A stretch of 63,995 bases of DNA, filler included, from Kipferlia bialata (taxonomy: Eukaryota), in assembly GCA_003568945.1 (NCBI GenBank). It is 6 parts of 6 records of this genome, joined end to end, with 100 filler letters (N's around TTAATTAATTAA, not from the genome) between each part and the next. Parts side by side here need not be neighbours in the genome. Positions count along the whole stretch, not along the records: positions 42,791 to 53,370 come from BDIP01001402.1; 5 more parts are not named here. The stretch is one strand, 5' to 3'. The notes below the pieces were generated by a model, which made no database searches, was not told the origin of the DNA, and saw only the letters and a program-made list of their open reading frames with translations. Each line of letters starts with the position of its first letter. Within the stretch, counting starts at the first letter, position 1. The position numbers and the translations under genes are program-made. Positions 47,101-48,834 of the stretch are shown here, piece after piece.

Positions 47101-48834
47101 TTTATACAAAAGTATTATTACTACTCTATATGACATCACGACCCTCATCACACAGCGGTAGAAGCACATACATACTTCTTGAAGTCATATAGAGAGAGTA
47201 TATACCCATAGTATATATCCATCTTCTATTACATACCTCACCCCCAGGACATGACCACCCTCATCACCGAGGGCCTCAACTCGGCATTTGACCTGGACAA
47301 CGCCCAGCTAGGTAGGGCATGACCTATGGGAACACGTAATACTATATTGTGTGAATGTCAATGTGAATATAGTATATCAGTATCAGTATCAGTATCAGTA
47401 TCGGCATTCGACCTGGACAACGCCCAACTAGGTGGGGACAATCATCACACCATTGGATATATATCCAAATGTACATAGTTATAGGTATATCCATGTATAC
47501 ATTGATATAGGTCGTATATATATATATACGTATATATATATATATATATATATATATAACCATCAGGTGTGCAGGCCAGTGGTGACCAGCCCGGTCCCTC
47601 TCTGTGGCGCACCACATCGGCATACACTGCTCTGCTGCTCAGACTCAGGAGACGGTACGTCCCTGTCACTACGCACTCTCATACTGGTTGTATTGTCTGA
47701 CTATAAGCTGACAGTGACCTCGAATACCCCTCTATCAACACTAAAATACGGACATGTCGCTTTTCTAACCATACTGTGTGTGTTGTCTAACATCAGTCTG
47801 ACCGTGACCTCGAGCACCCCCCTACCACCCTCAGAGCACTCCTACACACTGCCCCCACCCCCCAGCAGAGAGCTGCTGTACAAGGCATTGAAGGTATATC
47901 TGGAGTAGCAGTATATCCTATACTACATACGACTGTCTATAAATTGTTTTGCAATACTGATGCACTGTGATGCCATTTGTACAATTGTATAATTATTGTA
48001 CAACTATAATAGTATTCACCGTCAGGCCAATCCCCTTGTCCCTGAGTACCTCCTCCTCCGTGCCAGACTGCCCCCCTCTGCCATCATGCGGAGTCTGATA
48101 CTGCTGCCCCATGAGGCCACTTCTAATGACCTGAGGTCAGTGGCATACATATATAGATATGTGTATATAGTATTTTGTGTAGTATATACTCCCCCTCTGC
48201 CATCATGCGAAGTCTTATCCTACTACCCCACGAGGCTACATCCAATGACCTCAGGTGCCCTTGTTTAGGGATTTGATATTGATTGGCATTCTTATCTGTC
48301 AGACTCTTCAAGTCGAACATCTATGTAGAATGTATTTGTAGTTTATGGTATATATATAGTTTACAGTACATGTCTCTCATTTCAGACGTCTTGAGGCTGC
48401 CATCTACGCATGTGCCTTTGGCCATCTCTGGGGGTCCAACGAACTGGCACAGGCAGTCGGGGAGCACAGGTATATACCTATAAATATATACTTATATATT
48501 ACTTTTACATCTCTCTCCCTTCGTTCTGTGTATTTGGTCTCTCTCTTGTTCTTTCACATCCTCACTTCTTTCTTGTACTGTAATTGTCTCATCTCAGAAT
48601 GGGTCTGCCCTATGGTGAGTACATGGGAGTATACATATATTGCTCTTGCTGTCTATGTATATATATCCCTCTATACTGTCCATGTATATATATATATGTA
48701 TTGTATCTTATCTCAGGATGGGTCTGCCCTATGGGGAGAACATGGGAGTATACATATAGTAATCTTACTGTCAGTGTATATATATACATATATATATACA
48801 AATAGTATATATGTGTATACACTATTACTATGTA

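What the first reader, a model, noticed from the sequence alone, without database searches (positions are those of the whole stretch)
48072..48256. Intronic half-exon 'echoes' differ from their exon almost only at synonymous sites
Seen in sequence: echo 48191-48254 repeats the last 64 nt of exon 48026-48135 plus its GT. It has 10 substitutions, all synonymous third-position changes (PSAIMRSLILLPHEATSNDLR unchanged). The same pattern occurs on unlinked scaffolds. 44471-44520 vs 44371-44420 has 8 nt and 0 aa changes, including CGT>AGA. 15641-15681 vs 15531-15571 has 8 nt and 0 aa. 38209-38264 vs 38090-38145 has 10 nt and 0 aa. 2801-2852 vs 2906-2957 has 14 nt and 1 aa. These copies lack the other splice site, so they cannot be ordinary exons. 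Neutral intronic decay should mostly give non-synonymous changes; if about 30% of random changes are synonymous, 10/10 has a chance of about 0.3^10. Inference: the echoes are exon ends from deeply diverged alleles or earlier functional versions. They could be captured by one-sided homologous invasion (homology in the exon, microhomology at TA/GA repeats in the unalignable intron) or cycled through the functional position by unequal exchange. That would be a genome-wide exon-end turnover and intron-growth mechanism I do not recognise as described. I picked the cleanest cases; other echoes carry missense or nonsense changes (54354, 28377, 45760), which would fit ageing.
Basis: partly seen in the sequence, partly recalled or inferred. 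Interest (0 to 1): 0.92.

Follow-up and report, generated by a model that had tools for sequence, protein, structure and literature searches.

The report
Retired exon ends stacked in introns
In this stretch of the genome of the protist Kipferlia bialata, about four in ten introns hold roughly 100-base tandem copies of the neighbouring exon end that differ from it mostly at silent positions, likely because they were once working exon ends of other alleles that unequal crossing-over pushed into the intron.

Summary
Confirmed and not cherry-picked. The DNA is Kipferlia bialata. All five pairs are as stated. A read-based contig spans exon and echo; the mRNA contig skips the echo. In the window, 84 of 360 exon ends and 67 of 165 introns carry echoes, period about 100 nt. 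Echo-versus-exon dN/dS is 0.13-0.19 where decay predicts at least 0.5. Without the five picked cases it is 0.29. Echo versus echo is 0.14 where decay predicts 1. Echo codons and splice signals look functional while the intron spacers have diverged. Copies in one array share their inner boundary (30 of 38), which favours one founding duplication plus unequal exchange over independent captures. The anatomy is known (amphioxus 'mirages', human F7 VNTR), and this scan noted similar repeats in other genomes. The protein-level constraint was not found in print. Weak point: the model needs deeply diverged alleles, none were found, and toy simulations reached only 0.22-0.24.

The parts
48026..48135 (+). 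Working exon 16 of KIPB_005802 (P0001); its last 64 nt (48072-48135) are the echoed part
   Evidence: exact spliced mapping of P0001; in RNA contig 9 of run X2
48136..48190 (+). 55-nt spacer beginning with the used GT donor; no detectable similarity to the intron behind the echo
   Evidence: z -0.6, p 0.74
48191..48256 (+). Focal donor-type echo (64 nt of exon end plus GT): 19 identical nt at the inner end, then 10 silent differences; skipped in mRNA
   Evidence: the only in-frame upstream AG scores -7.7
48257..48385 (+). Rest of the intron, carrying the acceptor for exon 48386-48469
44471..44520 (+). Echo of exon 44361-44420: 8 silent, 0 replacement
44651..44693 (+). Second echo of exon 44361-44420: a third silent version (6 silent vs exon, 5 silent vs first echo); an N run lies between the two echoes
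15639..15681 (+). Echo of exon 15469-15571: 8 silent, 0 replacement
   Evidence: frame verified by P0002
15738..15804 (+). Second echo of exon 15469-15571: 6 silent, 1 replacement; 2 silent differences from the first echo
38210..38264 (+). Echo of predicted exon 38042-38145: 9 silent nt including a Ser AGT/TCA switch (10 when 38209 is included)
   Evidence: frame predicted
2801..2852 (-). Echo of predicted exon 2906-3280: 12 silent nt including a Ser switch, one codon replaced
2690..2741 (-). Second echo of exon 2906-3280: 9 silent, 7 replacement nt
45668..46143 (+). Five-unit acceptor-type array before exon 46144-46241: same 29-nt core, shared junction, homologous but diverged spacers, each ending in its own consensus acceptor
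48598..48894 (+). Two-unit acceptor-type array before exon 48895-48944
   Evidence: both echo cores lie inside DNA contig 8
43049..53281 (+). Host gene KIPB_005802 (38 exons mapped, partial, no homologue found); 17 of 76 exon ends have echoes

Best explanation
The echoes are real, untranslated tandem copies of exon ends that were likely working exon ends of other, strongly diverged alleles until unequal crossing-over moved them into the intron. Step 1 (young cases seen, mechanism inferred): a duplication of about 100 nt across one splice site makes a unit of about 30 nt of exon end, the splice site and about 70 nt of intron. It is tolerated because only the copy attached to the rest of the exon is used (shown for one gene). 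Step 2 (inferred): intron spacers diverge, so the exon-end core becomes the only homology between units and between alleles. Step 3 (inferred): out-of-register crossovers inside the core swap units in and out of the working position. A promoted unit survives only if it still codes the same protein and splices. A demoted unit arrives as a clean working allele with its own splice site and spacer. Step 4 (pattern shown): silent differences record the distance between working versions, while the 4-5% replacement, stop and GT/AG losses record decay since the last demotion. Each unit adds about 90 nt to the intron (shown). The echoes would be by-products, with no function of their own.
For: Real DNA: contig 8 of run X1 covers 47568-48766 in one piece at depth 389 with 0 other letters; contigs 6 and 8 contain 9 echoes. 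Unused: RNA contig 9 spans 1195 nt over 46144-49931, exactly the annotated exon sum, across introns with 12 echoes. Constraint: dN/dS 0.15-0.19 (122 echoes); 0.13, bootstrap 0.08-0.21, after trimming inner ends; 0.16 for the 44 echoes with annotation-verified frames; echo vs echo 43 silent/19 replacement, 0.14 (38 adjacent pairs). Echo codons are as typical as exon codons (79 vs 83 of 162; random mutation predicts 72% in favour of the exon, p 8e-10). Two clocks: silent and replacement divergence are uncorrelated (rho -0.01, 115 echoes); replacements are no more conservative than random (p 0.13), with 4 stops; GT loss 6/128 and AG loss 10/116 sites. Acceptors of 47 echoes with unrelated spacer bodies differ from the used acceptor at 6.6 of 14 positions yet score 3.8 (real 4.5; same number of random changes -1.4; p 2e-12). 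One founder per array: 30 of 38 shared boundaries, 15 of 33 homologous inner spacers. Polarity: replacements lie toward the inner end, silent changes toward the splice site (p 0.002). Toy simulation: unequal crossover at theta 0.3 and 800 times the mutation rate gave dN/dS 0.22 and kept 98% of spacer signals. Context from papers: fornicates lack Rad51A and Ku and have two Dmc1 (PMC8516963); crossovers fall in exons in a hyperdiverse fungus (PMC4209137).
Against: The model needs allelic silent diversity near 0.2, equal to the highest value in PMC4576712, or a subdivided population. Simulations with exchange at 30-300 times the mutation rate gave 0.38-0.59; low diversity at 1000 times gave 0.40. 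The best runs gave 0.22-0.24, not 0.13-0.19, and lost most arrays (24 of 61 kept). Their spacers were closer (about 0.3 differences per site) than the real ones, and their silent changes leaned to the inner end, unlike the data. Conversion-only runs did almost as well (0.24). Exon cores are identical while spacers look unrelated in 13 of 15 cases, so conversion of cores is probably also at work. Near-saturated silent tracts with 3-4 Ser codon-family switches and no replacements in a lineage-specific protein remain hard to explain. The narrow period (78 of 84 within 68-134 nt) is unexplained.
Confidence: 0.55

Rival explanations
1. Echoes stay in place as old duplicates, and gene conversion rewrites their exon-derived core from the working exon of a diverged homologue. 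They never occupy the working position.
For: Identity stops at the splice site for donor echoes (0.85, then 0.42, then background). Cores are identical with unrelated spacers in 13 of 15 cases. A conversion-only simulation reached dN/dS 0.24.
Against: It does not keep the spacer's own acceptor at consensus while that acceptor differs from the used one (simulated signal 0.66-0.88 vs 0.93-0.98 for crossover). It does not make multi-copy arrays. It also needs diverged alleles.
Confidence: 0.2
2. Each echo is a separate capture. A break in the exon is repaired by one-sided invasion of a diverged allele, copying its exon end and about 70 nt of intron, then joined by microhomology, which leaves the old exon end in the intron.
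For: It gives silent-only differences, a working splice site and an unrelated spacer in one step (62 of 75 nearest echoes lack detectable spacer similarity). Inner identical runs are longer than by permutation (12.0 vs 9.2 nt, p 0.03). No Ku pathway. 58 of 84 echoed ends have a single copy.
Against: Independent captures should have independent inner boundaries, but 30 of 38 neighbours share them (19 of 26 arrays) and many inner spacers are homologous. Junction microhomology was only glanced at, not tested. No donor allele was found.
Confidence: 0.13
3. The echoes are in use now, as cassette or alternative exons or through an unusual splicing route, so selection on the protein acts on them directly.
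For: Low dN/dS and kept splice signals. K. bialata has a reduced spliceosome with no snRNA candidates found (PMC6679479). The focal echo has an in-frame upstream AG.
Against: The RNA contig and both annotated proteins skip them. Only 2 of 64 donor echoes and 0 of 58 acceptor echoes have a second in-frame site of normal strength. Unit lengths are random modulo 3 and 30 of 45 donor units contain a stop. Replacements are non-conservative and include 4 stops. RNA evidence is one contig set, which can hide minor isoforms.
Confidence: 0.06
4. Assembly artefact: two haplotypes or strains were joined head to tail.
For: The period is close to a short-read length. No long reads were available. Run X1 may be the data the window was built from. 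The species is reported as diploid by k-mers.
Against: A separately built contig crosses exon, spacer and echo with no mismatch at ordinary depth. Arrays have up to five distinct units. Echoes carry stops and lost GT/AG sites.
Confidence: 0.03
5. Ordinary tandem duplicates decaying neutrally; the silent cases are a biased sample.
For: Removing the five picked cases raises dN/dS to 0.29, acceptor-type echoes give 0.25-0.30, and some echoes have only replacements.
Against: Decay simulated through a similar filter gives 0.60-1.09. Echo vs echo is 0.14. Codon and acceptor tests reject it.
Confidence: 0.03

Closest known systems
[quoted passage not shown]
   Same: Tandem copies of one exon-intron boundary at either exon end, keeping AG or GT, not disturbing splicing, with unequal crossing-over proposed.
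   Different: Described at a few loci, with units of 10-72 or 150-160 bp, 81-100% identical and homogenised along the unit. The passages read report no silent bias or cycling through the working position. Here 67 of 165 introns, period about 100 nt, spacers often unalignable, dN/dS 0.13-0.19.
Human F7 intron 7 37-bp VNTR (PMC1557585, abstract read)
   Same: First unit spans the exon-intron boundary; downstream pseudo-donors are functional but silent because the most upstream one is chosen.
   Different: One locus, identical short units; the abstract mentions no coding-level constraint.
Exon-confined crossing-over in hypervariable Schizophyllum commune (PMC4209137 and PMC4576712, abstracts read)
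   Same: Where alleles are very diverged, crossovers fall in conserved exons. Silent diversity of 0.20 shows that the needed level exists in nature.
   Different: Those are in-register crossovers; the abstracts mention no echo arrays. Diversity in Kipferlia is unmeasured.
Tandemly duplicated (mutually exclusive) exons (recalled); duplicated Y-linked exons of Drosophila (PMC8794474, passages read)
   Same: Nearby exon copies; in the mutually exclusive case both are under protein-level selection.
   Different: Those are whole exons with both splice sites, some expressed; these are half-exons, skipped in the mRNA.

Membership tests
Mirage-type exon-boundary tandem repeats | Head-to-tail units spanning one exon-intron boundary | tested here: met
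   122 of 125 echoes reach the facing exon end: 64 donor-type, 58 acceptor-type
Mirage-type exon-boundary tandem repeats | Many units keep GT or AG | tested here: met
   GT 59 of 64, AG 48 of 58
Mirage-type exon-boundary tandem repeats | Normal splicing is undisturbed | tested here: met
   RNA contig equals annotated exon sum across 12 echoes of one gene; minor isoforms not visible
Mirage-type exon-boundary tandem repeats | Units homogenised along their whole length, intron part included | tested here: inconclusive
   Intron part similar in 13 of 75 nearest echoes and 15 of 33 inner spacer pairs
Mirage-type exon-boundary tandem repeats | Copy-number instability between haplotypes or cells | not testable with these tools
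   Only contigs of one sample; no second isolate found
Mutually exclusive or cassette duplicated exons | Both splice sites present, frame kept | tested here: not met
   2 of 64 and 0 of 58 with a normal-strength in-frame second site
Mutually exclusive or cassette duplicated exons | Copy appears in mRNA | tested here: not met
   Absent from RNA contig 9 and from P0001 and P0002; contigs can hide rare isoforms
Haplotype-concatenation artefact | Junction absent from read-based contigs, or two alternative paths | tested here: not met
   Contig 8 crosses the focal junction; no skipping joint among the 15 shown, 13 more not shown
One-sided invasion products | Independent breakpoints, and a donor allele matching one copy | tested here: inconclusive
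   Breakpoints shared within arrays; single echoes cannot be tested; no donor found

The most novel reading that the evidence does not exclude
In a Rad51-less, Ku-less, Dmc1-only and very diverse protist, recombination is confined to exon ends and runs a genome-wide ratchet. Working exon ends, with their splice site and a piece of intron, are continually swapped into and out of introns. This builds about a third of all intron sequence and leaves in one genome an archive of working alleles from which population diversity could be read.
Probability: 0.3. Interest if true: 0.9.

Novelty: new variant of a known kind. Interest (0 to 1): 0.72.

Why it matters
If true, non-coding intron DNA can carry a strong signal of protein-level selection without being translated, because it passed through the working position earlier. 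That would give a testable route for intron growth and splice-site turnover (about 87 nt per unit; echo units are roughly a third of intron bases here, a rough count). It would let one genome report on allelic diversity of a species with no population data, and it would link intron architecture to the unusual repair kit of fornicates. It also warns that such echoes can be mistaken for exons: my gene finder called several.

Tried and rejected
No whole genome was held, so all statistics are from this window. Read data could be laid on one 5.5-kb stretch only, as contigs: they show presence, not allele frequency, and a second haplotype lacking the focal unit is not excluded (13 joints and 166 loose ends were not shown). 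One search listed no holder on record as RNA; X2 is RNA by guess, though its contig is spliced. Searches for a second allele or close relative were empty (weak evidence). Pfam named only pentapeptide repeats and thioredoxin among 14 ORFs. Rejected: faster mutation in the exon with a frozen echo, because echo vs echo is also 0.14; selection for frame-keeping units; conservative replacements. Slow unequal exchange or conversion did not lower dN/dS in simulation; two fast-exchange settings left no surviving arrays; the subdivided-population crossover run gave 0.23 from only 3 loci and is weak. Rows dropped before counting: predicted exons under score 20 or 40 nt; 8 predicted exons that resembled a longer neighbour, some probably true repeat-coding exons; low-complexity matches; 3 of 125 echoes not anchored at a splice site. 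Literature searches for the silent bias or for Kipferlia echoes found nothing. The library lacks most subscription papers, and I opened no supplements.

Full report
Source and layout. The window is six pieces of about 10.6 kb joined by N spacers. Two exons match proteins named Kipferlia bialata at 100%: KIPB_005802 (P0001) and a partial protein labelled glycine cleavage P (P0002). The species' genome paper (PMC5874029; first two of six parts and keyword passages read) reports a short-read assembly, diploidy by k-mers and 124,912 introns. It has no word starting with 'duplicat' and the passages shown do not mention such repeats.

Observation. All five pairs are as described. The focal structure is exon 48026-48135, a 55-nt spacer, a 64-nt copy of the exon end plus GT, then the rest of the intron.

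Is it real DNA? In run X1, one contig covers 47568-48766 without mismatch or gap at depth 389, like its neighbours. X1 may be the data behind the window, so this is a second assembly, not a second sample. A spliced contig in run X2 spans 1195 nt from 46144 to 49931, exactly the annotated exon total, so 12 echoes are skipped (8 exon pieces were listed, the rest follows from record coordinates). A haplotype lacking the unit is not excluded, because contigs drop variants and 13 joints were not shown.

Is it cherry-picked? I mapped P0001 exactly (38 exons) and wrote a gene finder for the other pieces. It was trained partly on P0001; it independently reproduced all 29 kept exons that fall in P0002, and the 3 non-matching exons of that piece belong to a thioredoxin gene. 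Among 180 exons I found 125 echoes, 122 anchored at the facing splice site. They sit at 84 of 360 exon ends and in 67 of 165 introns, with a median period of 102 nt. Each adds about 87 nt to its intron. Differences from the exon are 239 silent and 135 replacement, dN/dS 0.15-0.19. Trimmed at the inner end the value is 0.13 (0.08-0.21); with verified frames only it is 0.16; nearest echoes without the five picked cases give 0.29; acceptor-type echoes give 0.25-0.30. Plain duplication with decay predicts 0.5 and gave 0.60-1.09 when simulated through a similar filter.

The echoes themselves carry the constraint. Adjacent echoes differ by 43 silent and 19 replacement changes, 0.14 against 1.0 expected (38 pairs, not fully independent). 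At silent differences the echo codon is the commoner one as often as the exon codon (83 vs 79). Echo acceptors match the consensus although they differ from the used acceptor at about half of 14 positions. The intron spacers, in contrast, are similar in only 13 of 75 nearest echoes, with 71-83% power at 25% divergence. On top of this lies a thin layer of true decay: replacements uncorrelated with silent changes, no more conservative than random, 4 stops, and 5-9% loss of GT/AG letters. I read this as two phases: long evolution as working sequence, then short decay.

Present use is unlikely: 2 of 64 donor echoes and none of 58 acceptor echoes have a normal second site in frame, and unit length is random modulo 3.

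How they get there (inferred). Copies in an array share their inner boundary (30 of 38; 19 of 26 arrays) and often homologous spacers (15 of 33). The five-unit array at 45668-46143 has one junction, graded spacers, near-identical cores and five different consensus acceptors. That points to one founding duplication followed by out-of-register exchange within the core. Exchange also predicts that sites near the splice site are refreshed most often; replacement divergence rises from 0.030 to 0.060 over the first 30 nt inward. In arrays the working exon is the odd one out at 29 third positions, against 12 and 16 for the two echoes.

How far the model goes. In my toy simulations exchange alone is not enough: at 30-300 times the mutation rate dN/dS stayed at 0.38-0.59. 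With allelic silent diversity near 0.2 and exchange at 800-1000 times the mutation rate it fell to 0.22 for crossover and 0.24 for conversion in the detectable part; crossover kept spacer splice signals better. So deeply diverged working alleles are required, and I could not find them. The simulations did not reproduce the full depth of the effect, the unrelated spacers or the splice-ward lean of silent changes. Near-saturated silent tracts with Ser codon-family switches (4 of 23 changed Ser codons, one in a repeat) and the narrow period remain open. Papers supply plausibility only: fornicates lack Rad51A and Ku and have two Dmc1 (PMC8516963, passages); Dmc1 stabilises mismatched joints (PMC6719624, short abstract and section titles); crossovers fall in exons in S. 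commune, whose silent diversity reaches 0.20 (abstracts).

What is known. The anatomy matches amphioxus 'mirages' and the human F7 VNTR; both leads came from earlier notes of this scan on other genomes. Seven searches (listings only, unless a paper is cited above) found no report of such repeats in Kipferlia or of a silent bias in them. The original mirage paper and all supplements were not seen.

Verdict. A real, dense and statistically strong feature: a new variant of exon-boundary tandem repeats whose copies carry a history of protein-level selection. Most likely mechanism: unequal exchange between diverged working alleles at exon ends (0.55), then conversion of static copies (0.2) and one-sided capture (0.13). 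Interest 0.72.

Noticed in passing
window 18881-21039: The conserved enzyme exons (glycine cleavage P part, thioredoxin) have echoes at 0 of 22 exon ends against 84 of 360 overall; by hand p is about 0.003. Echoes may be excluded from conserved or highly expressed genes.
   Followed up: partly
window 10778-19959: Annotated protein P0002 joins a long coiled-coil, repeat-rich region to a glycine cleavage P fragment; possibly a fused gene model.
   Followed up: no
window 43968-44255: Annotated exon 43968-44032 ends in a GC donor, while its echo at 44221-44255 ends in GT and has a normal-strength in-frame AG upstream. Both echoes here differ only by replacements. The gene model or frame may be wrong here, or this may be an alternative exon.
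   Followed up: partly
window, many exon ends (e.g. 26090-26352, 37890-37949, 52842-52931): A protein-level scan found 24 further hits above the 99th percentile of the null, mostly short echoes of 4-8 codons and some chance, so the echo count is a lower bound.
   Followed up: partly
window 59302-59412: A perfect 55-nt tandem duplication outside predicted exons. The other 10 of 11 short-period repeats outside my exon set look like exon ends by eye.
   Followed up: no
window 57184-58242: Intron-free ORF of about 350 aa with pentapeptide repeats in an otherwise intron-dense genome.
   Followed up: no
echo alignments throughout the window: 30 of 102 amino-acid differences involve more than one nucleotide in a codon; may reflect multi-nucleotide mutation or alignment edges.
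   Followed up: no
acceptor sites throughout the window: Acceptors carry a branch-point-like CTNAC motif a few bases before the AG; the likeness to Giardia and Trichomonas introns is recalled, not tested.
   Followed up: no
window 10616-10715, 21326-21425, 32010-32109, 42691-42790, 53371-53470: Artificial spacers joining six separate pieces; other N runs are gaps inside pieces, one between the two echoes of exon 44361-44420.
   Followed up: yes
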